A stretch of DNA of 64,000 nt from Candidatus Saccharimonadota bacterium (GTDB taxonomy: Bacteria; Patescibacteriota; Saccharimonadia; Saccharimonadales; Saccharimonadaceae), in NCBI GenBank assembly GCA_009781895.1, contig WQUV01000002.1:38293-102292 (forward strand), written 5' to 3'. The first letter of the stretch is position 1. Each line of letters starts with the position of its first letter. The notes beneath the pieces are model-generated. The model made no database searches. It worked only from the letters and a program-made list of their open reading frames with translations, and was not told the origin of the DNA. Positions 6,016 through 61,087 of the stretch are shown here, one piece after another. Position numbers and translations under genes: made by a program.

Positions 6016-6044
6016 TTGACTTGTAAGCATAAACGTGGTATAAT
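6016..6044 (+). promoter_or_regulatory. Promoter cassette copy a (TTGACT-17-TATAAT with a conserved spacer)
   Basis: TTGACTTGTAAGCATAAACGTGGTATAAT. One of five near-identical copies. Confidence 0.65.
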
Positions 6045-12868: not shown

Positions 12869-13933
12869 ATGAAGAAGTTCTTACGGAGGTTGACACGTAA
12901 ACAAAAACAGATTCTGCTAGCGGTGGGTGCGGTTGTGTTAGTAGCAGGGTCTGTTGTCGGCGGCATGCTGGCAGCGCGACAAATTACGCATGATCCAGAG
13001 CCAGAGACCGAACAGCAAGAGGAAGAAGAAAAACCAGCCGAACACGGATACTTTGCGCCACTAACTGGCCTAGAGCTAGATGCGCCATTCCCCGCAGACT
13101 CGCCAGTAATGTCGGTAATTATCCCGAATAGCACAGTATTCCGCACCCAGTCGGGCTTAGTGCAGGCAGAGATCGTCTACGAAGCGATCGCTAACTCTGG
13201 GGTGCCACGGCTCTTGGCGCTATTTCAGGTGAATCAGCCTACGGTAATCGGTCCAGTGCGCAGCATGCGACCACACTACATCGACTGGGCAGCACCCTAT
13301 CAGGCAGCGCTCGGCAACTCGGGGGCAGCGGGCTATGTGCTGAACTTGATGGCAAGCCACCGCAACATTGGAGACGGAGTCGCGCAGAGCGGGACTTACT
13401 ACCGCGAAGACCGCCAAGGTCGCCCTGCTGAATACACCCTATATACGAGCTTCGCACGGCTGCTTGCCGCAAGTCAAGCGCGAGGCTGGACAACATCGAA
13501 CTTCACAGCGTGGTCGAGAAGTGACGAACCAACTCCTGGGCAGAACCTAAATGCGAATCGCATTGAGTTCTCGCTGGGAGCAGCAATCAATAACGTAGCC
13601 TATGAGTGGCACGCAGAGAGTGGCACTTGGCGACGACAGGTGGGTGGACGCCCGCATATGGACCGAGAGCATGGACAGATCGCGCCGAGCGTAGTGATAG
13701 CGATGAGAGTACAGTCGACGAGGGTTAGCGCAGACATAGAGGAGATCACGACAACTGGTTCAGGTGACGTATTCGTATTCCAGAACGGGCAGGTGGTACC
13801 AGGGAGATGGAGAAAAGACAGCCAAACGGCGCCGCTCCGCTTCTACGACATGAGAGGCGACGAAATAGTGCTGGCGCGCGGGCAAACATGGATTACTGCG
13901 GTGCCAAATAACAACCCAATAAACTTTAGGTAA
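12869..13933 (+). CDS. DUF3048 (YerB-like) secreted/membrane-anchored protein
   Basis: N-terminal TM. APLTGLELD..., VMSVIIPN, IGPVRSMRPHYIDWA match my memory of DUF3048. Confidence 0.55.
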   Translation: MKKFLRRLTRKQKQILLAVGAVVLVAGSVVGGMLAARQITHDPEPETEQQEEEEKPAEHGYFAPLTGLELDAPFPADSPVMSVIIPNSTVFRTQSGLVQAEIVYEAIANSGVPRLLALFQVNQPTVIGPVRSMRPHYIDWAAPYQAALGNSGAAGYVLNLMASHRNIGDGVAQSGTYYREDRQGRPAEYTLYTSFARLLAASQARGWTTSNFTAWSRSDEPTPGQNLNANRIEFSLGAAINNVAYEWHAESGTWRRQVGGRPHMDREHGQIAPSVVIAMRVQSTRVSADIEEITTTGSGDVFVFQNGQVVPGRWRKDSQTAPLRFYDMRGDEIVLARGQTWITAVPNNNPINFR

Positions 13934-18979: not shown

Positions 18980-19537
18980 TCATTCAGCGTGATGGAAGCG
19001 AGTGGTGGATTCAGGAAGAAGGTGATTAGGGTGAGTAGGAGTTAGGGTTAGCGTCCCCATGCGGATAGCGGCGTCGAGATGGATGATCTCGGCGGGGTCC
19101 TGGTGGATGGTGATGCGGACCTGTCCATCTATAATCTCCCAGAGTCCGTAACGACCATAGCTTTCGCCGTCAGCTGAGGTGCGTCGCTCATAAAAGCGGT
19201 TACTGTCAGCGAATTCGATTTGCTGAAGAGAGCTGTCGAGATCCGCAGGTTTCCAGACACCGGATAGATTCTGATCTGAGAGTGTATTGCGATTTAGAAA
19301 GAGGACAACAGTAATCGCGACGAAGACGGTCGCGCCGATAACCTTAAGGAGGGCCTTATATCTTATGGCGGCATTCCGTAGGCGCTCAAGCATTCTCTTG
19401 CGAGCGTAATCCTCGTAAACTTGCTCGTCTAGCTCTCTATGGAGTAGAACACCAGTATTATCATCCATAGGCGCTGGAGTCGAACCTGACTCTGACGCAC
19501 TGTCTGAGCCTGGGGTTATAGTTGACTGTTCGTCCAT
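18980..19537 (-). CDS. Hypothetical single-TM protein, 185 aa
   Basis: ORF with TM VIGATVFVAITVVLFL. Confidence 0.5.
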   Translation of the reverse strand: MDEQSTITPGSDSASESGSTPAPMDDNTGVLLHRELDEQVYEDYARKRMLERLRNAAIRYKALLKVIGATVFVAITVVLFLNRNTLSDQNLSGVWKPADLDSSLQQIEFADSNRFYERRTSADGESYGRYGLWEIIDGQVRITIHQDPAEIIHLDAAIRMGTLTLTPTHPNHLLPESTTRFHHAE

Positions 19538-28801: not shown

Positions 28802-30340
28802 TTAGATACCGACAGTTTTCTTGACGTCGGCGCCGAGGGCGTTGAGGCGGCGGACGATGTCTGCATAGCCACGATTAATCATGTAGACATTGCGGAGAAT
28901 CGAGCGGCCAGGGGCAGCGAGCATAGCTAGCAGGAGCACCATAGCAGGGCGAAGCGCTGGCGGGGTCATCATATTTGCAGGGCGGAAGTGGGTTGGACCA
29001 GTGATATAAACGCGGTGAGCATCAAGGAGCTCAACTTTAACGCCGACACGATCGAGTTCTGAGAGGTAGACAGCACGATTCTCGAAAACCCAGTCGTGGA
29101 TAAGGGTGCGGCCGTGAGCTTTCGCGGCGATGAGGGCGACGAAGGGGAGGTTGTCGATGTTTAGACCAGGGAAAGGCATAGGAGTGATCTTGTCGATAGG
29201 GGCCGCAAGCTGTGATTTCTTAAGGCGAAGATCGACTAGGCGAGAACGGCCGTTGGCACTTAGGTACTCAGGAGAAAGATCAAACTTAGCGCCCATAGTA
29301 CGGAGGATTTGAAGTTCAATCTCGACGAATTCGATGGGTACGCGCTTGACGGTGATAGATGAATCCGTGACGATACCAGCCGCGATGAAAGTCATGGCTT
29401 CGATCGGGTCCTCGGATGGGGCGTACTCGATGTCTTTCTTGAGGTTTTTCTTGCCATAAATAGTTAAAGTCGTAGTTCCGATACCCTCGAACTTAACGCC
29501 GAGCTTCTCGAAGAAGAAGCAGACATCCTGACACATGTAGTTGGGGCTGGCGTTCTTGATGACGGTCTTGGCTGGGGTTTGGGCAGCAGCAATGATGGCA
29601 TTCTCGGTGGTGGTGTCGCCACGCTCGGTTAGGACGATAATCTGGTCACGCGGGTTGTTATTAGCGATAGTAGCTGAATAGAATCCATTATCGCAGCGCG
29701 TGTCAACATCGAGGCCGAAATGAGATAGAGCCTGCAAGTGTGGCTCAACAGTGCGCTCGCCAAGAGTGCAGCCTCCAGCGAACGGGATACGGAACTCTTT
29801 GAAGCGATGAAGGAAAGTCGACATCATCATCAGAGCAGAACGAGTCCTTCGTGCGGTTTCGAGATCCATCTTGTCGAGGTTGAAAGTGCGAGGTGGGGTT
29901 AATTTGAGGTCTTTACGATGGTTCTTCCACTCAATATGGAAGCCAATGCTCTCCATAACCTCAATAATACGCATGCACTCCTCAACCCGACTGATGCCCT
30001 TGATAAGGGTAGTGCCGCGATTAGCGAGGCTGGCACAGAGGACACCAAGAGAGGCATTTTTGCTGGCAAGTACTGAAATACTGCCTTTAAGCTCATTGCC
30101 GCCATTGACGACAAAGCTCGCGATCTCACTGTCGTTAACGGTAAGAATCGGTTGGTGCAAGACCTGGCCGAGCTGATTGATGGTATCAAGCGTAATATTA
30201 CGTGCGCCATTCTCGATGCGTGCTACGGCAGACTGGGAAGTACCGAGCCTGCTCGCAAGCTCAGACTGAGTCCAGCCGTGTCGGATGCGCAGACTCTCTA
30301 CGAGCTTGCCCACCTGTTGCTTGTAATCGGATTTTGCCAT
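28802..30340 (-). CDS. murA: UDP-N-acetylglucosamine 1-carboxyvinyltransferase with an N-terminal XRE-type HTH domain
   Basis: Residues 1-65: GWTQSELASRLGTSQSAVARIENGARNITL. After that, MurA: LASKNASLGVL, catalytic-Cys loop FAGGCTLGERTVEPH, C-terminal INRGYADIVRRLNALGA. Confidence 0.85.
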   Translation of the reverse strand: MAKSDYKQQVGKLVESLRIRHGWTQSELASRLGTSQSAVARIENGARNITLDTINQLGQVLHQPILTVNDSEIASFVVNGGNELKGSISVLASKNASLGVLCASLANRGTTLIKGISRVEECMRIIEVMESIGFHIEWKNHRKDLKLTPPRTFNLDKMDLETARRTRSALMMMSTFLHRFKEFRIPFAGGCTLGERTVEPHLQALSHFGLDVDTRCDNGFYSATIANNNPRDQIIVLTERGDTTTENAIIAAAQTPAKTVIKNASPNYMCQDVCFFFEKLGVKFEGIGTTTLTIYGKKNLKKDIEYAPSEDPIEAMTFIAAGIVTDSSITVKRVPIEFVEIELQILRTMGAKFDLSPEYLSANGRSRLVDLRLKKSQLAAPIDKITPMPFPGLNIDNLPFVALIAAKAHGRTLIHDWVFENRAVYLSELDRVGVKVELLDAHRVYITGPTHFRPANMMTPPALRPAMVLLLAMLAAPGRSILRNVYMINRGYADIVRRLNALGADVKKTVGI

Positions 30341-30349
30341 AAAAGCCTT

Positions 30350-30377
30350 CAGAAAACCATGGTTTTCTGCCTTTCCT
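30350..30377 (-). promoter_or_regulatory. Leader module in front of murA: AGGAAAGG + 20-nt hairpin + 9 nt + AUG
   Basis: Sense strand AGGAAAGG-CAGAAAACCAUGGUUUUCUG-AAGGCUUUU-AUG. Confidence 0.6.
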
Positions 30378-30432
30378 TAATGATTAATGATTATTATTGT
30401 ATACACCATATTGTATCATATGGTATGTATAA

Positions 30433-30463
30433 AGGCAAGCTTTTGCGAAAACTTGCCTTTTTG
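30433..30463. terminator. Hairpin with T-tract downstream of efp
   Basis: AGGCAAG-12 nt-CTTGCCT-TTTTG. Confidence 0.5.
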
Positions 30464-34985: not shown

Positions 34986-35411
34986 TTAGTCGATGACTTC
35001 GACGCCCATAGAACGGGCAGAGCCTGCGACAACCTTGATGGCTGCTTCGACGTCATTAGCGTTAAGCTGGGCCATTTTGGCTTCAGCGATCTCTTTGAGC
35101 TGGGCCTTGGTGATTTTGCCGACCTTCTCAAGGTTTGGCTTGCCTGAACCCTTCTGGATGTTGATCTTTTCACGGATCATGTCGTCGACTGGGCGACCGA
35201 GGCAGTTCCAGGTGAAAGTTCGGTCATCATAAACCTGAATATGGACGATGACGTCTTTGCCGTTGAACTCCTTAGTTGCATCATTAAATGGGTTGATGAA
35301 GTCCATCATATTTAGGCCCCACTGACCGAGAGTAGAGCCGACTGGAGGACCAGCTGTGGCGCGACCACCAGGGACGCGGAGCTTTAAGTTACCAATAATC
35401 TTTTTTGCCAT
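34986..35411 (-). CDS. rplK: 50S ribosomal protein L11
   Basis: MAKKIIGNLKLRVPGGRATAGPPVGSTLGQWGLN. Confidence 0.95.
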   Translation of the reverse strand: MAKKIIGNLKLRVPGGRATAGPPVGSTLGQWGLNMMDFINPFNDATKEFNGKDVIVHIQVYDDRTFTWNCLGRPVDDMIREKINIQKGSGKPNLEKVGKITKAQLKEIAEAKMAQLNANDVEAAIKVVAGSARSMGVEVID

Positions 35412-35420
35412 AAATACATT

Positions 35421-35448
35421 CAGAAAACCTAGGTTTTCTGCCTTTCCT
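35421..35448 (-). promoter_or_regulatory. Leader module in front of rplK: AGGAAAGG + 20-nt hairpin + 9 nt + AUG
   Basis: Sense strand AGGAAAGG-CAGAAAACCUAGGUUUUCUG-AAUGUAUUU-AUG. No other SD lies within 15 nt of the AUG. Confidence 0.65.
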
Positions 35449-35520
35449 TTAGTTGCATCCTGTAGTCCAGAGTGGATCTGGTTAGTCGGATGATGTTAAA
35501 TCTATGTGCGTAACCTGCAC

Positions 35521-35549
35521 ATTATAGCAGGAAGTAGCACCGAATACAA
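35521..35549 (-). promoter_or_regulatory. rplK promoter
   Basis: Minus strand TTGTAT-17-(TGC)TATAAT. Back-to-back with cassette e, 8 nt apart. Confidence 0.6.
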
Positions 35550-35557
35550 GAGGAGAC

Positions 35558-35586
35558 TTGATTTTTAAGCATAAATGTGGTATAAT
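35558..35586 (+). promoter_or_regulatory. Promoter cassette copy e
   Basis: TTGATTTTTAAGCATAAATGTGGTATAAT. Confidence 0.65.
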
Positions 35587-35697
35587 ACGGAGGGTATACA
35601 GGAGTATACCTCCCTACACAAAAGACGTAAAGAATAGCGTAGAACTTTTACAGCTTACTTAAACTGAAATTATATTTTCCGAAAGGGGCAGATCAAT

Positions 35698-36390
35698 ATG
35701 CCGAGTAAGGCTATACTAACACCAACGCAAGAGCTTTACCAGAAGATCTTTGGCGAGCTACCCAAGCGTGACATAATTGAGGCTGACATGCCTGCGCTCT
35801 ATGAAGTTCTTGACACGCTAACTGACCGAGACAAACGTGTTATTGAGATGTGTTTTGGCTTAGGCTAAGAAAAGATGGCGAGAGCAGCTATCGGCAAGGA
35901 GTTAAATGTAACTCCGGCTTGGGTAACACAACTCAAAGCAAAGGTAATAAAAAAGCTACAGAATGAAAATCGTGCTAAGAAGATCAAGCCTTTGTTCTAC
36001 TCATATGAAGAAATGAGAGCTGAAATCACAAGGCGCGACGAGCAGATTTACGAACTGACAAATACCTTGAGGTAAACTAAAGGTGAGAATACTGAGCTTC
36101 GCAAGAAAAATAGAGAGTTAGGAGAGGGACCAGTTGATGCGAAAATGTTCCCCGATCTAAAGCTGATAGAAGTCTTGGATTTGGATATCGAGGAGATGGA
36201 CTTGTCAGTTAGGTCATATAATTGCCTGAAAAGAGCCGGGCTCAATACTGTCAGAGATGTCGTCCTGCGACATAAGAAGGATGGACTCACAAAAATCCGA
36301 AGGATATGCAAACGCTCAATCGAAGAAGTTGTAGCCGAGCTCACAGAGTTGGGTATACTGCTAGACCGACCAGACGAATATTATTTATAA
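35698..36390 (+). pseudogene. Single reading frame encoding sigma-70 region-4 HTH + coiled coil + RNAP alpha-CTD-like HhH, interrupted by two in-frame TAA codons (35866-35868 and 36073-36075)
   Basis: Codon-by-codon reading gives ..LTDRDKRVIEMCFGLG*EKMARAAIGKELNVTPAWVTQLKAKVIKKLQ...IYELTNTLR*TKGENTELRKKNREL...MDLSVRSYNCLKRAGLNTVRDV...SIEEVVAELTELGI. The track shows only the 2nd and 3rd pieces. Confidence 0.6.
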
Positions 36391-36404
36391 GTAAGCATTA
36401 TTAA

Positions 36405-36437
36405 GCCGCCCTGGCACTATGCTTTGGGCGGTTTTTC
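36405..36437 (+). terminator. Rho-independent terminator of the cassette
   Basis: GCCGCCC-14 nt-GGGCGGTTTTT. Confidence 0.6.
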
Positions 36438-36776
36438 TCTTCGCATATGAGTAAGACTAAAGATTAGCAGGGCGAGACTGGTGACTAGCCAGATGGAGCC
36501 GAAAATAAGAAAGAACGGGAATAAGACACAACCCAAGCCAGCTCCATCGCTCGCCACACAGCTGATATCGATGAGCAACATAAAGAGTGAAGGCATTACG
36601 AAAAGAGCGAAAATGACGGCTCGGATTGCATGCTCGGTTTTACGTTTGATGGGTCTTCTTTTACGGATCAGCCAAAAGACGAAAGACAACAGCAGGTACA
36701 CCAAGACAGGCCCAAGAGCCCAAGCCAGTGCGGCGAGATATGAAAAGAGGTTCATCGTAAAAGGCATTATCTCCAT
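36417..36776 (-). CDS. Hypothetical 4-TM membrane protein, 119 aa, downstream of nusG
   Basis: ORF made almost entirely of hydrophobic helices. Confidence 0.5.
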   Translation of the reverse strand: MEIMPFTMNLFSYLAALAWALGPVLVYLLLSFVFWLIRKRRPIKRKTEHAIRAVIFALFVMPSLFMLLIDISCVASDGAGLGCVLFPFFLIFGSIWLVTSLALLIFSLTHMRREKPPKA

Positions 36777-36812
36777 AATAGCATAACCTAGACAGGAATA
36801 GAAGCTAGGGGA

Positions 36813-47792: not shown

Positions 47793-49523
47793 CTAATATA
47801 CCACACCTCTCCAGTAAGGCATAAGCTCAGCAAGGAGGTCGCGCCAGATCATCTTGGCGCCTGAACCAGAGCCAAGGAGGCCAGGGCCGCCATAGCGGAC
47901 TCCGACGATAAGGTCTGGCATCATCCCCTCCTCCTCTACGCAGAAGCCGAAGAACGACCCAGTGAGACGGTCGTCGAAATAGCCACCAGCAGGATTGACG
48001 ACTTGGGCAGTACCAGTCTTACCACCGCAATACATCTCGGTGAACGGTGGGCGGCGAGCGGCCTGGAAGAGATTGAATGAGGTGTGGAGGGACTCACGGA
48101 GCTCGCGACTGATTGTGTCGGTGACGATGTTCTGGTCAAGGACTTCTCCGCCTTGTCCCTGGATAATAGTTGGGCGGAAGAGCGTGCCGCCATTAACCAT
48201 GGCGGAATATGCGTTGGCAATCTGAAGCATCGACATTGAAGTGCACTGTCCAAAAGTCATATTGGCAAAGCAGTGATTGATGGCGAAGCGGGCGGCCGAC
48301 TCGGGGCGACTAACGAAACCAGCGGATTCTGGCAATTCGATACCCGTGCGGCGACCAAAGCCAAGACGGCTAAACATGTCATAGAGATGCTGACGTCCAG
48401 TTTGATTGAGTTCGCCGCCACCCATACGACGAAGCATTTCGACCGAGCCAGTGTTAAACGACCAATCCATGGCTTCCTGAAAGGTCTGAACGGCGCCAGA
48501 ATGGCGGTCGTCAGCATTACGGACCAGCATGCCATCGATGGTTTGCTGACGATGATTAATGAATGTATCAGTTGGGCGTAAGACACCAAGACTGAGAGCG
48601 GCAGCGAAAGTAGGAGTCTTCATGACACTAGCTGGCTCGTAAGCGTCAATGAGGACAGGGTTAGTGAAGCGGCTAGTATCGTAACGCTGAAAATTGGCAG
48701 GGTCGAAACCGTCGCGGCTAGCCATAGCCAGCACTTCGCCGTTTGAGGCGCGTTTAACAATGATGTCGACGAATTCGGCGCTATGGTAGGCTGCCCAGCG
48801 CCGAGCGGCGCCCTCAGCCATTACCTGAATGTTTCGGTCGATGGTGAGACGAACTGGCTGACCGTCTTCAGGAGGGATAAGGATCTGATCAGTAGCGACA
48901 GTAAGCGGAACGTTGCGAAGATCGGTGATAGCGCGGCGAGTGCCGTCGGTGCCGGTGAGCTGATTATTAAAGGCGCCCTCGACACCATAGAGTCCGACAC
49001 CCTCATGATTGACAAAGCCGAGAATGCGCGAACCGAGCGTGCCCTCAGGATAGACACGACGAGTGCCCTCCTCGAAGCCAATGCCTGTGACGCCACCAGA
49101 GCGGATCTCCTCTGCTATGGCGCGCGGGACATTGCGAGCCAGAATGACATAACGGCTGCGACGAGCGTCCATGGCTTCGTCAAAGCGGGCGCCAGCCTGA
49201 ATGGTACGCTCGATGACAGCTCGCGTCTCGGCGCGATTCTCGACCATGGCAAAGTCGACGAAGACGAGATAAACCTGCTCGTTAAGGACGGCCGGAACGT
49301 TAACGTTGCCATCGCGCCAATAGATAGTGCCGCGAGCGGCGTGCAAGGTCCATTGACGGGTCTGGTTTTGCTCGGCGGCGATCACGAACTGCTCGTGATT
49401 AATGACTTGCATACCGAAAAGCCGCCCAGCAATCGCGATGAGGGCGATACCAGTGGCGATGGCTAGAAATTTGACTCGTCGCTCAATGGACTTATCCATA
49501 AGTATAGTATAACATAAGCCCAT
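47793..49523 (-). CDS. ftsI: Class B penicillin-binding protein (FtsI/PBP2-type transpeptidase)
   Basis: SVMK, SFN, KTGT. The start is ambiguous (49523 or 49499). Confidence 0.85.
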   Translation of the reverse strand: MGLCYTILMDKSIERRVKFLAIATGIALIAIAGRLFGMQVINHEQFVIAAEQNQTRQWTLHAARGTIYWRDGNVNVPAVLNEQVYLVFVDFAMVENRAETRAVIERTIQAGARFDEAMDARRSRYVILARNVPRAIAEEIRSGGVTGIGFEEGTRRVYPEGTLGSRILGFVNHEGVGLYGVEGAFNNQLTGTDGTRRAITDLRNVPLTVATDQILIPPEDGQPVRLTIDRNIQVMAEGAARRWAAYHSAEFVDIIVKRASNGEVLAMASRDGFDPANFQRYDTSRFTNPVLIDAYEPASVMKTPTFAAALSLGVLRPTDTFINHRQQTIDGMLVRNADDRHSGAVQTFQEAMDWSFNTGSVEMLRRMGGGELNQTGRQHLYDMFSRLGFGRRTGIELPESAGFVSRPESAARFAINHCFANMTFGQCTSMSMLQIANAYSAMVNGGTLFRPTIIQGQGGEVLDQNIVTDTISRELRESLHTSFNLFQAARRPPFTEMYCGGKTGTAQVVNPAGGYFDDRLTGSFFGFCVEEEGMMPDLIVGVRYGGPGLLGSGSGAKMIWRDLLAELMPYWRGVVY

Positions 49524-49558
49524 CGGAGACACCTACGGTTTCTCCGCCTATTCCCCTT
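49524..49558 (-). promoter_or_regulatory. Divergent fourth copy of the purine-tract + hairpin leader module (ftsI)
   Basis: Sense strand AAGGGGAAUAGG-CGGAGAAACCGUAGGUGUCUCCG-AUG. Confidence 0.4.
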
Positions 49559-49595
49559 AGTTGTATCTGGCCTGCAAGGTGACTGCTCGATACAA

Positions 49596-49953
49596 CTAGG
49601 AGAGTTCTTCAGTGTGGTCGACAGCGATAACGATAGCACCTTTAGGGGTGCAAGTGTCGGTTCTATATAATTTGGTGACCATATCGAAATACTTACCGTC
49701 CGCGAAGTATTCAGCAGAACCTGATAATCTTAGCCCCCCCCCAATTCTTGTCGAAGGAGGTTAGTACGACTCGAGGGTTATGCTTGATGTTATTGACCGT
49801 ATTGGCCATTTCGTTGTGCGAGACTAGCAACCTGTCTTCACCTAAGACTTTGATGTCAGCTACGACAGCCAAGTTTGGTGAGCCGTCTGGACGGACGGTT
49901 GCGATATGAGTGCTGTTGCCATCGATTAGCGACTTCTTATCAAATAGATTCAT
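49596..49953 (-). pseudogene. Pyridoxamine-5'-phosphate-oxidase-family (FMN-binding split barrel) gene, frameshifted at a C9/G9 tract
   Basis: The 80-aa track ORF ends just after the tract. With one G fewer the frame continues LRLSGSAEYFADGKYFDMVTKLY...KGAIVIAVDHTEELS* to 49596. Confidence 0.6.
49734..49742. repeat. C9 (sense G9) homopolymer at the frameshift site
   Basis: Counted directly: tagcccccccccaatt. Confidence 0.9.
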
Positions 49954-50701: not shown

Positions 50702-51574
50702 CTACACTCGCGCGGCGAAGCGCATCTTTGCAGATCGCGCTCGCGGGTTATTCTCTAGTTCTTGAACACCACTCGTGTAGAGCTTTTTGCTGACGTTTAG
50801 GCGGCTCTCTAGACCCCTACCTGCTTCATCAGCGAGCCATTGCTTGACGATACGATCCTCAAGGCTATGGAAGGTAATGATGCTAAGACGCCCCCCGGGT
50901 TTTAGTAAATCCGGTAGCATCGGCAAAGTCCGCTCCAGCAGCCCTAGCTCATCGTTAACTTCAATGCGTATGGCCTGAAAATACTGTGTCGCAGGATGAT
51001 GACGCGAGTGTGGCGATTTCGCCTTGATCAAATCGGCAAGTTCTTTCGTGGTATTAAAAGGTCGGGCATGAGTAATCTCCCTCGCGATTTTTGCCGCAAG
51101 GCCATTCTTAACTTCACCGTATTTAACAAAGAGTTCAACTAGATTTCGTTCGCTGTATGTATTGACTACGTTTTTGGCAGTCAAATCCTGCGTTCTGTCC
51201 ATTCGCATGTCCAGCTCGCCTTCATACATAAACGAAAATCCGCGCTCACCCTCGTCTAACTGTGGTGATGAAACCCCAAGGTCCGCCAGAATCATATCAA
51301 ATCGTCTTTTCTCCACAAAAAGCGCTGACACGGCTGTCAAAAAATCCATGTGTAAAAGCGTAGCACCTTTGGCCTTTAAATCGCCTAATGTTGCGATGGC
51401 CATTTGGTCACGATCCACTAATACGGACTCCTTGAACATACCTGTCTGCTCCAAAATCTCTCTAGAGTGTCCGCCAAATCCAGCTGTCAAGTCTAGTAGG
51501 CTCTCGCCAGGCTTCGGCTGCAACACATCAAGTACTTCGCCCAGCATGACTGGTTTATGTCTTGGTTGTTCCAT
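50702..51574 (-). CDS. rsmH: 16S rRNA (cytosine1402-N4)-methyltransferase
   Basis: HKPVMLGEVL, DLTAGFGGHS, DLGVSSPQLD, SLEDRIVK. TGATACAAT lies 6 nt upstream of the ATG. Confidence 0.9.
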   Translation of the reverse strand: MEQPRHKPVMLGEVLDVLQPKPGESLLDLTAGFGGHSREILEQTGMFKESVLVDRDQMAIATLGDLKAKGATLLHMDFLTAVSALFVEKRRFDMILADLGVSSPQLDEGERGFSFMYEGELDMRMDRTQDLTAKNVVNTYSERNLVELFVKYGEVKNGLAAKIAREITHARPFNTTKELADLIKAKSPHSRHHPATQYFQAIRIEVNDELGLLERTLPMLPDLLKPGGRLSIITFHSLEDRIVKQWLADEAGRGLESRLNVSKKLYTSGVQELENNPRARSAKMRFAARV

Positions 51575-53862: not shown

Positions 53863-55113
53863 TCAGGAAAGTTCGGCGAGCGCCTCACTAGATGTAACCA
53901 GCTTCGGTTCGCCTAGTCTTGGCTTTAGCTCAACCTTGCCTTGCTCGAGGGTCTTGTCACTAACGACAATACGGTAAGTGATGCCGAGGAGATCAGCATC
54001 AGCTAGCTTCTCGCCCACTCGGGCGTGCTTGCCGTCGCGATCATCCCAGAGGACTTCGATGCTAGCTTGTATAAAATCTGTGTAGAGTTCGGCAGCGGCT
54101 TTCTCTCCCTGCTCTCCTATACCAACAAGATAGACCTGGAATGGGGCGACGGATTCTGGCCAGACAAGACCGTGATTATCACTAAGCTTCTCAGCGAGAA
54201 CACCCATGACACGAGTAATTCCGACGCCGTAAGAACCAAGGAAGATCGGCTGCTTTGTGCCGTCTTCTTTGGTAAATTCGACTTTCATCTCGTCGGCCTT
54301 GTCCGCGCCGAAATTAAAGATGTTGCCAACTTCGGCGCTTCTAACCTTTTCGAGCTTCGATTTGTCGAGGCCTAGTTCTTGAGCTGCTTCCTCGAGGACT
54401 TCTTCGTTTACGGCGATGCTCTTCTCGCGGTCGAGATAGAGCCAGTCCTCACCCGCATCACAAAGGGTCTGAAACTCGTGACTAAAGCGAGTAAAGGCGC
54501 CACCACTCGCGAAAGTGACAAAAGTATCATCACCCAGACCGAGGCGGTCGTAGATCTTAACATAGGCTTGCTTGACGCGTTCGTAATAGGCGTTTAGATC
54601 CTCGATGCTAGCATGCATTGAGTACATATCCTTCATGATGAATTCGCGGCCGCGCATGACGCCAGATTTGGCGCGGAGTTCGTTGCGAAGCTTGGTCTGA
54701 AACTGATAGACTGAGATCGGTAGGTCGCGATAGCTCGTCGCTTGACGGCCGATAGTCTCGAGGATTGGCTCCTCATGGCTCCAGGCGAGACCAACTTCAG
54801 TGTCGTCTTTGAGCTTTGACTTAAACCAGACATCGACAGCTTCGTTATCCCAGCGACCCGTCGACTCCCAGAGGTCGCGAGGCTGGAGACTAGACATCAC
54901 TAGCTCGCCACCGCCGACAGCATTCATCTCCTCGCGGACGACCTGCTTGATCTTCTCTAGGACACGGAAGCCAATTGGCAGATAAGCATAGACACCTGCC
55001 ATTTGACGGTCGACGTAGCCCGCCTTAGTTAATAGACGAGCGTTCTTACTTGGCTCCTCTGCTTCGCTTTGCTCGCTCTTACTGGTCTTAATCCAAAACT
55101 CTGATCGTTTCAT
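53863..55113 (-). CDS. proS: Prolyl-tRNA synthetase (short form without the INS editing domain)
   Basis: LLTKAGYVDRQMAGVYAYLPIG, class II motifs FRNELRAKSGVMRGREF and GSYGVGITR. Confidence 0.88.
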   Translation of the reverse strand: MKRSEFWIKTSKSEQSEAEEPSKNARLLTKAGYVDRQMAGVYAYLPIGFRVLEKIKQVVREEMNAVGGGELVMSSLQPRDLWESTGRWDNEAVDVWFKSKLKDDTEVGLAWSHEEPILETIGRQATSYRDLPISVYQFQTKLRNELRAKSGVMRGREFIMKDMYSMHASIEDLNAYYERVKQAYVKIYDRLGLGDDTFVTFASGGAFTRFSHEFQTLCDAGEDWLYLDREKSIAVNEEVLEEAAQELGLDKSKLEKVRSAEVGNIFNFGADKADEMKVEFTKEDGTKQPIFLGSYGVGITRVMGVLAEKLSDNHGLVWPESVAPFQVYLVGIGEQGEKAAAELYTDFIQASIEVLWDDRDGKHARVGEKLADADLLGITYRIVVSDKTLEQGKVELKPRLGEPKLVTSSEALAELS

Positions 55114-55120
55114 ATATATT

Positions 55121-55148
55121 CAGAAGACCTAAGTCTTCTACCTTTCCT
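55121..55148 (-). promoter_or_regulatory. Leader module in front of proS: AGGAAAGG + 20-nt hairpin + 7 nt + AUG
   Basis: Sense strand AGGAAAGG-UAGAAGACUUAGGUCUUCUG-AAUAUAU-AUG. There is an A-U to G-C compensatory change relative to the rplK/murA copies. Confidence 0.65.
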
Positions 55149-55299
55149 ATAGTTAATCTGCTCTACTGGAATGAACCTAGTCTCGCAGATAGTTGTTAAA
55201 TTTTTAATCAATATACTTAGCGCATCTTTTTAATGTGTAGAGAAAAACCGCCAAAGCGGAGTCTGGAGGAAGAAGCTTGCTTGGTATTTCATATAGTAT

Positions 55300-55305
55300 A
55301 TTATA
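55300..55305 (-). promoter_or_regulatory. proS promoter -10 (TGATATAAT), giving a ~185-nt leader
   Basis: Minus strand gtgTGATATAATatac. Confidence 0.45.
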
Positions 55306-59878: not shown

Positions 59879-60652
59879 TTAATGGGTAACTCCGCCCGAA
59901 AATGATACTAACATGACCACCTGAATTATAATTGCAGAAACGCCCGCCAAGACGACTTCGGCTCGTTCAATCTTACTGTCTTCCTGAAGGTGCTCGAGGT
60001 AAAGTGAGGTAAAGAGCGCAGCCAGCAGTGCGGTGATGGCGAACTGCGGCACTATGACGTCAGCGAAGAAGTATGCAACCTGCCAGAAATGAGAGATGTA
60101 GGCAAGAGTGGCGATGACAAAGGCGAAGCAAAGAGCTGGGAGCTCGATACTGCCGGCTTCGTTGTCTAGGGCGATCAGGAAGTGGCGAGCGGTGACATAG
60201 GCTATGATACTGGCGACCACAACCAGAACAATACTTGGAAGACTATAGAGGAGCTGGACGGCAACTACGAGACCCAAGAAAAGGGCGATGCCAGATTGTA
60301 TCTTAGCGAACAAGAGGTCGTTGCGGGGCTTTATGACGCCCATCCAGAGGACATAAATGGTGACGATGGCGATAAGGACGATATAATTGGTGATATTAAG
60401 ATAGGCCAGGAGGACGAAGGAGACATTAGCGATGATGTCGACGAGGTTGGCGCGGATGCTAAGCCAGAGGAAATAGGGACGGACGATGAAAGTGCGCCAC
60501 TTACTGGCAGCGACAAGGATAAGAGATGGCCAAGGGATGCCGCTCAAGACCACAAGGCCAATCGCCGCAATCGCGAAGCCGATATTTAGCACAAGATGCA
60601 GAATATCGCTAAAAGCCGAACCTGACCCCCTGCTCTCTAAGAATTTTGCCAT
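59879..60652 (-). CDS. Hypothetical polytopic membrane protein, 257 aa
   Basis: About 8 hydrophobic helices. TGATATAAT lies 7 nt upstream of the ATG. Confidence 0.55.
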   Translation of the reverse strand: MAKFLESRGSGSAFSDILHLVLNIGFAIAAIGLVVLSGIPWPSLILVAASKWRTFIVRPYFLWLSIRANLVDIIANVSFVLLAYLNITNYIVLIAIVTIYVLWMGVIKPRNDLLFAKIQSGIALFLGLVVAVQLLYSLPSIVLVVVASIIAYVTARHFLIALDNEAGSIELPALCFAFVIATLAYISHFWQVAYFFADVIVPQFAITALLAALFTSLYLEHLQEDSKIERAEVVLAGVSAIIIQVVMLVSFSGGVTH

Positions 60653-60715: not shown

Positions 60716-61087
60716 TCAATTCTGGGTGGAGGTGTCTTTCTTGGCCCAAGAGCGCTTGCAGTTTTTGGCTTGTTTTTGGAGGAAAGCCTGATTGATGTCG
60801 ATACCCATGACGTTGGCGTAGGCGCAGAGGGTGATGAAAACATCGGCGACTTCGTCCTCTACTGTGTCGCTACCCTCCTTAGATAAGTCAATACTGTGGC
60901 CCAAATGTTTACGGGTGGCGTGGGCGAGTTCACCGACCTCTTCAGCGAGATAGATGATGCGGTCGCGCGGATCGGTCGAAGTCCAGCCATTTGCTTTGTA
61001 CATTTCTTTGACGTATTCCTGAACGTCGGAGACACTGAAGTTGTCGCCGAGTTGCTGTAGATTCTTCTCCATATCAAATGCTGCCAT
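60716..61087 (-). CDS. MazG-like nucleotide pyrophosphohydrolase
   Basis: LAEEVGELAHA...EDEVADVFITLCAYANVMGID. TGATATAAT lies 6 nt upstream of the ATG. Confidence 0.6.
   Translation of the reverse strand: MAAFDMEKNLQQLGDNFSVSDVQEYVKEMYKANGWTSTDPRDRIIYLAEEVGELAHATRKHLGHSIDLSKEGSDTVEDEVADVFITLCAYANVMGIDINQAFLQKQAKNCKRSWAKKDTSTQN

What the first reader, a model, noticed from the sequence alone, without database searches (positions are those of the whole stretch)
35421..35448. A conserved leader module, purine tract - 20-nt hairpin - 7-9 nt - AUG, precedes rplK, murA, proS and possibly ftsI
Sense-strand sequences are as follows. rplK (35421-35448): AGGAAAGG-CAGAAAACCUAGGUUUUCUG-AAUGUAUUU-AUG. 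murA (30350-30377): AGGAAAGG-CAGAAAACCAUGGUUUUCUG-AAGGCUUUU-AUG. proS (55121-55148): AGGAAAGG-UAGAAGACUUAGGUCUUCUG-AAUAUAU-AUG. A divergent copy precedes ftsI (49524-49558): AAGGGGAAUAGG-CGGAGAAACCGUAGGUGUCUCCG-AUG. All are also preceded by AACUAnAGG. The proS copy has an A-U to G-C double change that keeps the stem, and its closing pair is U-G. That pair forms only in the sense RNA (it would be C-A on the other strand), which argues for selection on RNA structure. rplK and proS have no SD within normal range of the AUG. The only SD-like element is held about 30 nt away and would be brought to about 8-10 nt if the hairpin forms, the split-SD principle known from phage T4 gene 38. This is a candidate structure-dependent translational control element or protein-binding site shared by translation and cell-wall genes.
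Basis: partly seen in the sequence, partly recalled or inferred. Interest (0 to 1): 0.7.

Follow-up and report, generated by a model that had tools for sequence, protein, structure and literature searches.

The report
Repeated Shine-Dalgarno-plus-hairpin leader cassette
In one Saccharibacteria genome, three unrelated essential genes (rplK, an HTH-murA fusion, proS) carry almost the same short leader, in which a stable hairpin sits between the only ribosome-binding sequence and the start codon; sister species lack it, so it is a young, copied cassette that probably works like the phage T4 "split" ribosome-binding site, not a conserved regulatory RNA.

Summary
The core observation holds. Three near-identical copies of AGGAAAGG + an 8-bp/4-nt-loop hairpin + 7-9 nt + ATG precede rplK, HTH-murA and proS. 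They are the only 3 of 60 window genes with a strong distal SD, no proximal SD and a stable hairpin in between.

Corrections:
- The ftsI copy is a weak, divergent relative. It lies at the -35 position of a leaderless ftsI promoter, not next to the real start codon.
- murA lacks AACUAnAGG.
- In rplK and proS the element is about 92 nt long: ATTTAACA, a variable hairpin HP1, AACTAxAGGAAAGG, then HP2.

The module is not conserved in relatives. About 2 Mb of related Saccharibacteria DNA has no copy. Orthologous murA, proS and ftsI are leaderless or have a plain SD, and the closest rplK leaders have no hairpin. The flanks (ATTTAA, TAAAGGAAA) are ancestral rplK-leader features, so the cassette probably arose at rplK and was copied.

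Covariation is weak: one compensatory pair and one G-U. The best reading is a lineage-specific 5'-UTR cassette whose RNA hairpin brings the SD to 7-9 nt from the AUG, with a sequence-constrained stem that may bind a shared factor. Rivals are a DNA operator or a neutral repeat.

Rating: new variant of a known kind, moderate interest.

The parts
35441..35448 (-). rplK copy: purine tract AGGAAAGG, the only strong SD-like site upstream of rplK
   Evidence: duplex with assumed anti-SD -8.4 to -9.6 kcal/mol; P(unpaired) 0.89
35421..35440 (-). rplK copy: HP2 hairpin CAGAAAAC-CUAG-GUUUUCUG (8 bp, 4-nt loop)
   Evidence: -9.1 kcal/mol, z -2.3; 5'-arm P(unpaired) 0.00 in the full leader
35409..35420 (-). 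rplK copy: 9-nt AU-rich spacer AAUGUAUUU plus ATG start codon of L11 (MAKKIIGNLK)
   Evidence: the N-terminus matches about 80 orthologs
35456..35492 (-). rplK copy: HP1, the upstream variable stem-loop (CAUCC...GGAUG with an inner CCAGA/UCUGG hairpin)
35494..35501 (-). rplK copy: 5' conserved flank ATTTAACA, exactly 61 nt from its first base to the end of AGGAAAGG, as in proS
35449..35455 (-). rplK copy: linker CAACUAA between HP1 and the SD
35514..35549 (-). rplK promoter TTGTAT-17-TGCTATAAT and predicted TSS at GTTACGCAC (35514), giving a 103-nt leader that contains the cassette
   Evidence: direct reading; TGCTATAAT-N6-GTTACGCAC is conserved in L002, L003, L105 and most rplK loci
30370..30377 (-). 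murA copy: AGGAAAGG
30350..30369 (-). murA copy: HP2 CAGAAAAC-CAUG-GUUUUCUG. The loop ATG lies 9 nt after the SD and opens a 3-codon mini-ORF (MVF*)
30338..30349 (-). murA copy: spacer AAGGCUUUU (contains a weak AAGG) plus ATG of the HTH-MurA fusion
30410..30438 (-). murA promoter TTGCCT-17-TGATACAAT upstream of the cassette; leader of about 60 nt
55141..55148 (-). proS copy: AGGAAAGG
55121..55140 (-). proS copy: HP2 UAGAAGAC-UUAG-GUCUUCUG (U-G closing pair; A-U to G-C compensatory change)
   Evidence: (-9.9 kcal/mol, 0 of 200 shuffles as stable)
55111..55120 (-). proS copy: 7-nt spacer AAUAUAU plus ATG of ProRS
55156..55190 (-). proS copy: HP1 (AUCUGC...GCAGAU). Same length slot as the rplK HP1, but only 15% identical in the 39-nt middle
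55194..55201 (-). proS copy: 5' flank ATTTAACA
49524..49558 (-). ftsI-proximal divergent relative: AAGGGGAAUAGG + CGGAGAAACC-GUA-GGUGUCUCCG. It overlaps the -35 region of the leaderless ftsI promoter
49558..49598 (-). ftsI-proximal HP1-like hairpin UAGUUGUAUC...GAUACAACUA (10 bp)
49497..49514 (-). probable true ftsI start: extended -10 TGTTATACT, 6 nt, ATG (MDKSIERRVKF)
   Evidence: family D2; the L103 ortholog is leaderless, MNRRIKFVAI

Best explanation
This is a lineage-specific, copied 5'-UTR cassette.

Its core is a good Shine-Dalgarno sequence (AGGAAAGG), followed directly by a stable 8-bp RNA hairpin (HP2) and a 7-9 nt AU-rich spacer before the AUG. In rplK and proS the cassette also includes an upstream variable hairpin (HP1) between the conserved flanks ATTTAACA and AACUAxA.

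Proposed mechanism: in the mRNA, HP2 folds essentially always. This loops out 20 nt, so the SD sits 7-9 nt from the AUG instead of 27-29 nt, and the 30S subunit can use it. That is a 'split' ribosome-binding site.

HP2 and the SD are 87% identical between paralogous copies, while HP1 has diverged to random. This suggests that the HP2 sequence, not only its pairing, is constrained. The inference is that a common trans-acting factor, or a specific fold that includes a short closing helix reaching the AUG, recognises it. That would tie expression of L11, ProRS and HTH-MurA together.

Origin: the cassette most likely arose in the rplK leader and was then duplicated in front of genes that were ancestrally leaderless or had a plain SD.

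Shown: the repeat, its positions, its absence from relatives, the predicted folding and the SD energetics. Inferred: that the RNA forms in vivo, that it acts on translation, that a factor exists, and the direction of copying.
For: Repeat and anatomy.

RNA-level features:
- Same orientation and a fixed distance to the start codon (7-9 nt), but variable distance to the promoters (about +45 to +170). This fits a translational role better than a promoter-level one.
- The 5' arm of HP2 has P(unpaired) 0.00-0.02 and the SD has P(unpaired) 0.67-0.89 in the full leaders.
- AGGAAAGG binds an assumed anti-SD as well as the tuf and rpsF SDs do (-8.4 against -8.2 and -10.2). The last 18-20 nt before the AUG reach only -2 to -4 kcal/mol.
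- Of 60 window genes, only these three combine a strong distal SD, a weak proximal SD and an intervening hairpin.
- AGGAAAGG and AAAGGAAA act as normally spaced SDs elsewhere in the phylum.
- The deviations from a perfect palindrome in proS are U-G in the sense strand (C-A on the other strand), and one pair is compensated.

Precedent: T4 gene 38 (22 to 5 nt) and gene 25 (27 to 11 nt), where destabilising the hairpin lowers initiation (PMC3014915).

Recent insertion:
- 70 of 80 orthologous murA genes are leaderless, including the closest relative with a mapped start, L003.
- proS orthologs have a plain SD or are leaderless.
- The closest rplK leaders (L105, L002) read ATTTAA..(T)AAAGGAAA..ATG with no hairpin.

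Copying from rplK: both rplK-type flanks are present at proS.

Sequence constraint on HP2: 27 of 31 identical for SD+HP2+AAU against 6 of 39 in the HP1 middle.
Against: - There are only three good copies, all from one genome lineage. The independent assembly that could be aligned (Logan SRR10512955, proS leader) is 100% identical, so there is no population or orthologous variation to test.
- Covariation is statistically weak: 6 of 8 pairs are invariant and 167 of 500 shuffles do as well.
- rplK and murA are perfect DNA palindromes, so they carry no strand information.
- The ftsI relative is not next to a start codon.
- murA has a weak proximal AAGG and could initiate without the split arrangement.
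- rplK leaders in other Saccharibacteria tolerate 12-18 nt between AAGGAAA and the ATG without a hairpin, so the distal motif may not be the operative SD.
- The anti-SD sequence of this organism was assumed, not read; there is no 16S gene in the window.
- There is no TSS, Ribo-seq or probing data.
Confidence: 0.4

Rival explanations
1. DNA operator. The 20-bp palindrome (9-2-9: CAGAAAACC TA GGTTTTCTG) is the binding site of a dimeric DNA-binding protein, which acts as a roadblock just upstream of the start codons (and at -35 in ftsI). The RNA hairpin is a by-product.
For: Two copies are perfect 20-bp palindromes and the stem sequence is strongly conserved, more than a simple clamp needs. One target encodes an XRE-type HTH fused to MurA, which would suit autoregulation. 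The ftsI relative overlaps the -35 region of a promoter.
Against: - In three copies the site is 45-170 bp downstream of the predicted TSS but at a fixed 7-9 nt from the ATG.
- The asymmetric flanks (AGGAAAGG 5', AAU 3') are conserved together with it.
- The HTH-MurA fusion is present in all 80 Saccharibacteria loci, yet none has the palindrome, and their murA promoters show no similar site.
- Isolated half-sites are not enriched: 19 non-module hits against 14.5 +/- 3.6 expected.
- The deviations in proS are G-U-compatible only in the sense RNA.
Confidence: 0.15
2. Neutral or selfish repeat. This would be a small duplicated or mobile intergenic element (REP-, MITE- or Correia-like, or a product of illegitimate recombination). 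It spread into AT-rich promoter-proximal DNA. It survives only where it does no harm, because it carries its own SD and the hairpin folds out of the way. It has no regulatory role.
For: It is lineage-specific and multi-copy, and it is absent from the orthologous sites of sister species. One relative (ftsI) sits upstream of a promoter rather than in a UTR. The ends are conserved around a variable middle. The same genome shows other rearrangements next to rplK.
Against: - No target-site duplication, terminal inverted repeat or transposase could be identified (direct reading).
- All copies have the same orientation relative to the downstream gene, and three have an exact SD-hairpin-AUG register.
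- The cassette is the only SD these essential genes have, so at minimum it has been co-opted for translation.
- There are only 4 copies in 77 kb, and none in 3' UTRs or between convergent genes.
Confidence: 0.25
3. mRNA stabiliser or processing element. HP1, HP2 and the distal SD-like tract would protect the 5' region from 5'-exonuclease or endonuclease attack (STAB-SD or 5' stem-loop type) or define a processing site. Initiation at the AU-rich, SD-less start would occur by another route.
For: There are stable hairpins plus an SD-like tract far from the AUG. The genome translates many SD-less or leaderless mRNAs. rplK leaders elsewhere tolerate long SD-AUG distances.
Against: The elements are not at the extreme 5' end of the predicted transcripts: HP2 starts at +74 in rplK and +152 in proS. 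The constant 7-9 nt distance to the AUG has no explanation under this model. No data on the RNases of this organism were examined.
Confidence: 0.1
4. Terminator of antisense transcription. On the + strand the palindrome is followed by CCTTTCCTTT and could stop transcripts running antisense through the genes.
For: The consensus scan calls terminator-like sites on the + strand at the rplK and murA copies.
Against: The stem has only 3 G-C pairs, and the tail begins with CC and is interrupted. The proS copy is not called. A + strand transcript would first have to cross the whole antisense gene. This model does not explain the register to the ATG.
Confidence: 0.03

Closest known systems
Split ribosome-binding sites of phage T4 genes 38 and 25 (Nivinskas et al. 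1999; Malys & Nivinskas 2009; reviewed in PMC3014915)
   Same: A hairpin sits between the SD and the AUG. The linear spacing is too long (22 and 27 nt in T4; 27-29 nt here) and folding reduces it to a functional distance (5 and 11 nt in T4; 7-9 nt here). In both cases the arrangement arose late within a clade and is missing from more distant relatives.
   Different: The T4 cases are single-gene solutions at intercistronic junctions. Here the same sequence cassette is repeated before three unlinked cellular genes, with a conserved stem sequence and, in two copies, an extra upstream hairpin. There is no experimental support here.
E. coli thrS translational operator with a split ribosome-binding site (Sacerdot et al. 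1998, as discussed in PMC3936740)
   Same: The leader of an aminoacyl-tRNA synthetase gene has a hairpin that the ribosome accommodates without unfolding. The hairpin is also the binding site of a regulator.
   Different: In thrS the hairpin lies upstream of the SD and mimics the tRNA-Thr anticodon arm. HP2 has a 4-nt loop, lies between SD and AUG, and is shared with non-synthetase genes. No mimicry was detected.
Small repeated palindromic intergenic elements (REP/BIME, ERIC, Neisseria Correia elements, pneumococcal BOX/RUP); from general knowledge
   Same: These are short, hairpin-forming, multi-copy and lineage-specific, are co-transcribed with flanking genes, and can alter expression.
   Different: Those families are usually abundant, occur in both orientations and often in 3' UTRs, and have recognisable TIRs, target duplications or a cognate transposase. 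None of that was seen here. This element carries the gene's SD in a fixed register to the AUG.
PeSL mobile regulatory cassettes of T4-type phages (PMC2839356)
   Same: These are short repeated cassettes made of an expression signal plus a stem-loop, found upstream of many genes. They are thought to spread and to mediate recombination.
   Different: PeSLs are a promoter plus a terminator in phage hyperplastic regions. This cassette is an SD plus an internal hairpin in a cellular genome.
Ribosomal-protein leader of rplK in Saccharibacteria (GTTACGCAC-hairpin-TAAAGGAAA; seen here; not in Rfam)
   Same: The window's rplK keeps GTTACGCAC and TAAAGGAAA. HP1 occupies the slot of the ancestral leader hairpin. 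The cassette flanks look derived from this leader.
   Different: The ancestral hairpin (loop GCUUCA) is absent. HP2 has no counterpart in any of about 80 other rplK leaders, and the cassette also precedes non-ribosomal genes.

Membership tests
Split (hairpin-bridged) ribosome-binding site, T4 gene 38/25 type | SD-to-AUG linear distance too long for initiation (more than about 15 nt) | tested here: met
   29, 29 and 27 nt from the end of AGGAAAGG to the ATG
Split (hairpin-bridged) ribosome-binding site, T4 gene 38/25 type | A stable hairpin occupies the intervening sequence and leaves SD and AUG 5-11 nt apart | tested here: met
   8-bp hairpin (about -9 to -10 kcal/mol in rplK and proS; -8.5 for the 37-nt murA MFE); 5'-arm P(unpaired) 0.00-0.02; residual spacing 9, 9 and 7 nt
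Split (hairpin-bridged) ribosome-binding site, T4 gene 38/25 type | No alternative SD at normal distance | tested here: met
   -3.1 kcal/mol (rplK, proS) and -4.0 (murA, weak AAGG), against -8.9 to -15.5 for genes with a canonical SD. The anti-SD sequence was assumed.
Split (hairpin-bridged) ribosome-binding site, T4 gene 38/25 type | Destabilising the hairpin lowers initiation and compensatory changes restore it | not testable with these tools
   Needs reporter or toeprint assays
Conserved cis-regulatory RNA family (Rfam-type leader or riboswitch) | Match to a curated covariance model | tested here: not met
   No Rfam hit at gathering score in the window. Nothing relevant at E<=10 in the rplK, proS and ftsI leaders.
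Conserved cis-regulatory RNA family (Rfam-type leader or riboswitch) | Presence at orthologous positions in related species, with covariation | tested here: not met
   Absent from 80 murA, 82 rplK and 4 proS orthologous leaders and from about 2 Mb of relatives. Within-genome covariation is weak.
RNA thermometer (fourU/ROSE type) | SD and/or AUG sequestered in the temperature-labile hairpin | tested here: not met
   The SD lies outside HP2 and is mostly unpaired (0.67-0.89). The HP2 U-run pairs with AAAA, not with the SD. The AUG is predicted to be paired in rplK and murA, but by other, non-conserved partners.
Intrinsic terminator / attenuator | G+C-rich stem followed directly by a U-tract on the sense strand | tested here: not met
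   Only the rplK copy passes the lax scan on the sense strand. murA and proS do not, and the stem has 3 G-C pairs.
Palindromic operator of an HTH regulator | Inverted repeat positioned relative to promoter elements, and co-occurrence with its regulator across genomes | tested here: not met
   The position is fixed to the ATG, not to the promoter. HTH-MurA is ubiquitous, but the palindrome is unique to this lineage. Protein binding itself was not testable.
MITE / REP-like mobile repeat | Terminal inverted repeats and/or target-site duplication; many copies in both orientations; a cognate transposase | tested here: inconclusive
   No TIR or TSD is recognisable by eye. There are 4 copies in 77 kb, all in one orientation relative to the genes. 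No transposase Pfam domain appears among the pre-computed hits for the called genes around it. Only about 10% of the genome could be examined.

The most novel reading that the evidence does not exclude
A 'plug-in' translation-initiation cassette is born from the rplK leader. It has been copy-pasted in front of ancestrally leaderless or simple-SD essential genes (ProRS, HTH-MurA, possibly the dcw cluster) in one Saccharibacteria lineage. This creates a new post-transcriptional regulon whose shared, sequence-constrained hairpin between SD and AUG is read by one factor, for example a ribosomal protein that originally autoregulated rplK. That would be regulon evolution by duplication of a 5'-UTR operator, in an ultra-small episymbiont.
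Probability: 0.12. Interest if true: 0.75.

Novelty: new variant of a known kind. Interest (0 to 1): 0.42.

Why it matters
If the hairpin is needed for initiation, this would be the first multi-gene, cellular example of the split ribosome-binding-site design, which so far is known from single phage T4 genes. It would also show how a genome that relies heavily on leaderless mRNAs converts genes to SD-dependent, potentially co-regulated translation by copying a ready-made leader. It further gives a concrete case of very recent 5'-UTR turnover in Saccharibacteria. If the cassette is only a tolerated repeat, it still matters for annotation. Start-site predictors that expect an SD within 15 nt will mis-score these genes, and the ftsI start is probably mis-called.

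Tried and rejected
- Rfam at the gathering threshold on the window and at E<=10 on three leaders: nothing relevant.
- Exact-pattern scan of metagenome contigs for SD+hairpin: 0 hits. The collection does not even contain the window.
- Viral-contig scan: 10 hits, all chance matches with unrelated flanks.
- CM R1 and nhmmer on relatives: the only hits (L014, L017, L022, L024, L038, L044) lie inside a 550-aa membrane-protein ORF and are spurious.
- The idea that HTH-MurA binds the palindrome: rejected as the leading model, because the fusion is universal in the phylum while the palindrome is not.
- The idea that the small HTH-like ORFs inserted next to rplK encode the binder: they are a sigma-70 region-4 fragment with an in-frame stop and an alpha-CTD homolog, neither of which binds palindromes.
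- Search for isolated half-sites: no enrichment.
- Search for AAACC-N2-4-GGTTT hairpin cores across 2.1 Mb: only coding-region hits, plus an unrelated rplK leader in L147 and L169.
- Extending the genome beyond the window: +13 kb was obtained with no new copy.
- Paralog trick to reach other contigs: no suitable multi-copy family.
- The hairpin between SD and ATG in the L003 rplK leader (AGGAGA-UU-CGGC GUUA GCCG-9 nt-AUG) is too weak to count as independent support (z -1.4).

Full report
**What is there.** The window is part of a 125-kb contig of a Candidatus Saccharibacteria (TM7) genome, GC 50%. These are rplK (L11), a 512-aa fusion of an XRE-type HTH with MurA, and proS. The module is AGGAAAGG, then a 20-nt palindrome, then 9, 9 or 7 nt, then ATG. 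A 2-nt loop is not feasible, so the RNA hairpin (HP2) is 8 bp with a 4-nt loop. Its energy is about -9 to -10 kcal/mol in rplK and proS. In full-length predicted leaders its 5' arm has P(unpaired) 0.00-0.02, while the purine tract stays mostly single-stranded at P(unpaired) 0.67-0.89.

The copies are clearly homologous and not chance:
- The rplK and murA copies share a 47-nt repeat at 89% identity.
- The stem pattern occurs 6 times at up to 2 mismatches against 0.83 expected. The three modules are the only exact matches.

**Corrections to the observation.**
- murA is preceded by CAUUAAGG, not AACUAnAGG.
- The ftsI copy is not detected by a covariance model of the three copies, even at E<=10. 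Its similarity to the rplK module is only just above the window background: local score 31 against a best unrelated score of 27. It does share the two-hairpin architecture.
- The ATG that abuts the ftsI copy is probably not the ftsI start. The ortholog in the related genome L103 is leaderless and begins MNRRIKFVAI. That aligns with MDKSIERRVKF, which starts at ATG 49499-49497. That ATG lies 6 nt downstream of an extended -10 (TGTTATACT), the same arrangement as about ten other leaderless genes in this window. The ftsI relative therefore overlaps the -35 region of a promoter rather than lying between an SD and a start codon.
- In rplK and proS the repeated unit is larger than reported. ATTTAACA lies exactly 61 nt (first base to the last G of AGGAAAGG) upstream in both. 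Between it and AACUAxA lies a stem-loop (HP1) of the same slot length but with unrelated sequence, 6 of 39 identical. By contrast, SD+HP2+AAU is 27 of 31 identical.

**Is the distal purine tract the ribosome-binding site?** I assumed a generic bacterial 16S tail (ACCUCCUUUCU), because no 16S gene is in the window.
- AGGAAAGG pairs at -8.4 to -9.6 kcal/mol. This is like the SDs of tuf (-8.2) and rpsF (-10.2).
- The last 18-20 nt before the three start codons reach only -2.2 to -4.0 kcal/mol.
- Among 60 ORF starts in the window, these three are the only ones that combine a strong distal site, a weak proximal site and a stable intervening hairpin.
- The same motif is a normally spaced SD elsewhere in the phylum. 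Nanosynbacter murA has AGGAAAGG-5 nt-ATG, and most rplK genes have TAAAGGAAA-4 to 8 nt-ATG.
- Folding of HP2 would reduce the spacing from 27-29 nt to 7-9 nt. This is the arrangement shown experimentally for T4 gene 38 (22 to 5 nt) and gene 25 (27 to 11 nt) (PMC3014915).

**Is it conserved? No.**
- A protein-anchored scan gave murA loci from 80 Saccharibacteria species (1.4 Mb). None contains the stem pattern or a credible CM hit.
- 70 of these 80 murA genes are of the leaderless type (-10 box 5-9 nt before the start). This includes L003, the closest relative with a mapped start, at 86% identity. Six have a plain AGGAAAGG SD.
- The nearest proS orthologs (79-83% identity) have a plain SD or are leaderless.
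- About 80 further rplK leaders share a different, widely conserved design: TATAAT-N6-GTTACGCAC-hairpin-TAAAGGAAA-ATG. The two closest (L105 at 94% L11 identity, and L002) have no hairpin at all and read GTTACGCAC..ATTTAA..(T)AAAGGAAA..ATG.
- A metagenome pattern scan found nothing. nhmmer found only the four copies in the 77 kb of this genome that I could reach, and none in any other fetched locus.
- The independent assembly of the same strain that I could align (Logan SRR10512955, proS leader) is 100% identical. This rules out an assembly artefact but gives no variation to analyse.

So the module is a young, lineage-specific insertion placed in front of genes that previously were leaderless or had a simple SD. 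Both ATTTAA and TAAAGGAAA are ancestral features of the rplK leader, and both also flank HP1 at proS. The simplest history is therefore origin in the rplK leader followed by copying (inference).

**RNA or DNA?** Evidence for selection on RNA pairing is real but thin. Six of 8 pairs never vary, one pair is compensated (A-U to G-C) and one is C-G to U-G. 167 of 500 column shuffles do as well.

Arguments for an RNA/translation role:
- The fixed register to the start codon, against variable distance to the promoters.
- The constant orientation.
- The co-conserved asymmetric flanks.
- The deviations from perfect symmetry in proS are G-U only in the sense strand.

Arguments against the DNA-operator rival:
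- The HTH-MurA fusion is universal in the phylum while the palindrome is not.
- There are no isolated half-sites.
- The small ORFs inserted next to rplK are a sigma region-4 fragment and an alpha-CTD homolog, not palindrome binders.

The contrast between a randomised HP1 and a conserved HP2 suggests constraint on the HP2 sequence beyond simple clamping. This hints at a specific partner, or at a larger fold. A 4-bp closing helix is predicted in rplK (UAAA, just 5' of the SD, pairing with UUUA, which includes the A of AUG). murA has a longer closing helix, AAGG/CUUU plus CAU/AUG. By direct reading, proS can form UAUA/UAUA, one covarying pair relative to rplK, although its MFE does not show it. 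I regard this helix as unproven.

**Mechanism and rivals.**
- Best explanation (confidence about 0.4): a copied 5'-UTR cassette that acts as a split ribosome-binding site, possibly doubling as a shared translational operator.
- Neutral or selfish repeat that merely brings its own SD (0.25).
- DNA operator (0.15).
- mRNA stabiliser or processing element (0.1).
- Antisense terminator (0.03).

These concern function. The descriptive conclusion, a lineage-specific repeated leader cassette, is well supported whichever one holds.

**Novelty and score.** The principle (a hairpin-bridged SD) is known from phage T4, and short repeated palindromic elements are common. What is new is the combination: one sequence-conserved SD-hairpin cassette serving several unlinked essential cellular genes in a CPR bacterium that is otherwise rich in leaderless genes. 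With three copies, one lineage and no experimental or transcript data, I rate it a new variant of a known kind, with moderate interest (0.42).

Noticed in passing
window 55230-55305 (minus strand); L099 about 1920-1990; L100 about 190-260: A conserved leaderless upstream ORF precedes proS. The window has MKYQASFFLQTPLWRFFSTH*, L099 has MTSVFLTFPNFIPLWR* and L100/L101 have MRYGAGFFPLIPLWR*. The nucleotides TTCCGCTTTGGCGGT are identical in all three. They encode the conserved P-L-W-R and also form a CCGC/GCGG hairpin followed by a U-rich run. This is a candidate proline-codon-dependent leader-peptide attenuator of prolyl-tRNA synthetase. It is absent in L103, where proS itself is leaderless.
   Followed up: partly
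L105-L184 about 100 nt upstream of rplK; window 35506-35514 (minus strand): rplK leaders of about 80 Saccharibacteria and relatives share TATAAT-N6-GTTACGCAC-[6-9 bp hairpin, loop often GCUUC(A/U)A]-(G)UAAAGGAAA-ATG. There is no Rfam match. This is a likely uncatalogued ribosomal-protein leader. The window keeps only GTTACGCAC and the SD.
   Followed up: partly
window 28802-30340 (minus strand); L001-L080: MurA carries an N-terminal XRE-type helix-turn-helix domain (aa 10-62). The fusion is covered from residues 1-6 onward in all 80 Saccharibacteria loci retrieved, so it appears to be a phylum-wide feature.
   Followed up: partly
window 35558-36800: A lineage-specific insertion lies between nusG and rplK; these genes are adjacent in L002, L003 and L105. 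It has a strong + strand promoter. It also has a sigma-70 region-4-only ORF interrupted by an in-frame TAA at 35866-35868 (the domain is complete when read through), a stand-alone RNA polymerase alpha-CTD homolog (81 aa) and a 119-aa membrane ORF.
   Followed up: partly
window-wide, e.g. 59879-60652, 60716-61087, 50702-51574, 18980-19537, 12869-13933: Many genes are leaderless, with TGnTATAAT followed by 6-8 nt and then ATG. A family of near-consensus promoters (TTGACT-N17-TGnTATAAT) recurs at 6016, 6770, 32230, 33404 and 35558.
   Followed up: no
window 30354-30365 (minus strand): In the murA copy only, the HP2 loop contains an ATG 9 nt after AGGAAAGG. It opens a 3-codon mini-ORF (ATG GTT TTC TGA) inside the hairpin. 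Nanosynbacter murA leaders (L045, L067-L069, L072, L075) have a leaderless mini-ORF ATG GTT TAT TAG that overlaps their SD.
   Followed up: no
L147 560-640; L169 2940-3010: Two more distant rplK leaders lack GTTACGCAC and instead have a long hairpin with the apex AAACC-GUAG-GUUU, upstream of GAAGGGAAA-ATG. The apex resembles the ftsI-proximal hairpin of the window. This is probably coincidence.
   Followed up: no
window 34986-35411 and L105: In this subclade rplK is not followed by rplA. The next gene is on the opposite strand (lysozyme-like), so the usual rplKA operon is broken.
   Followed up: no
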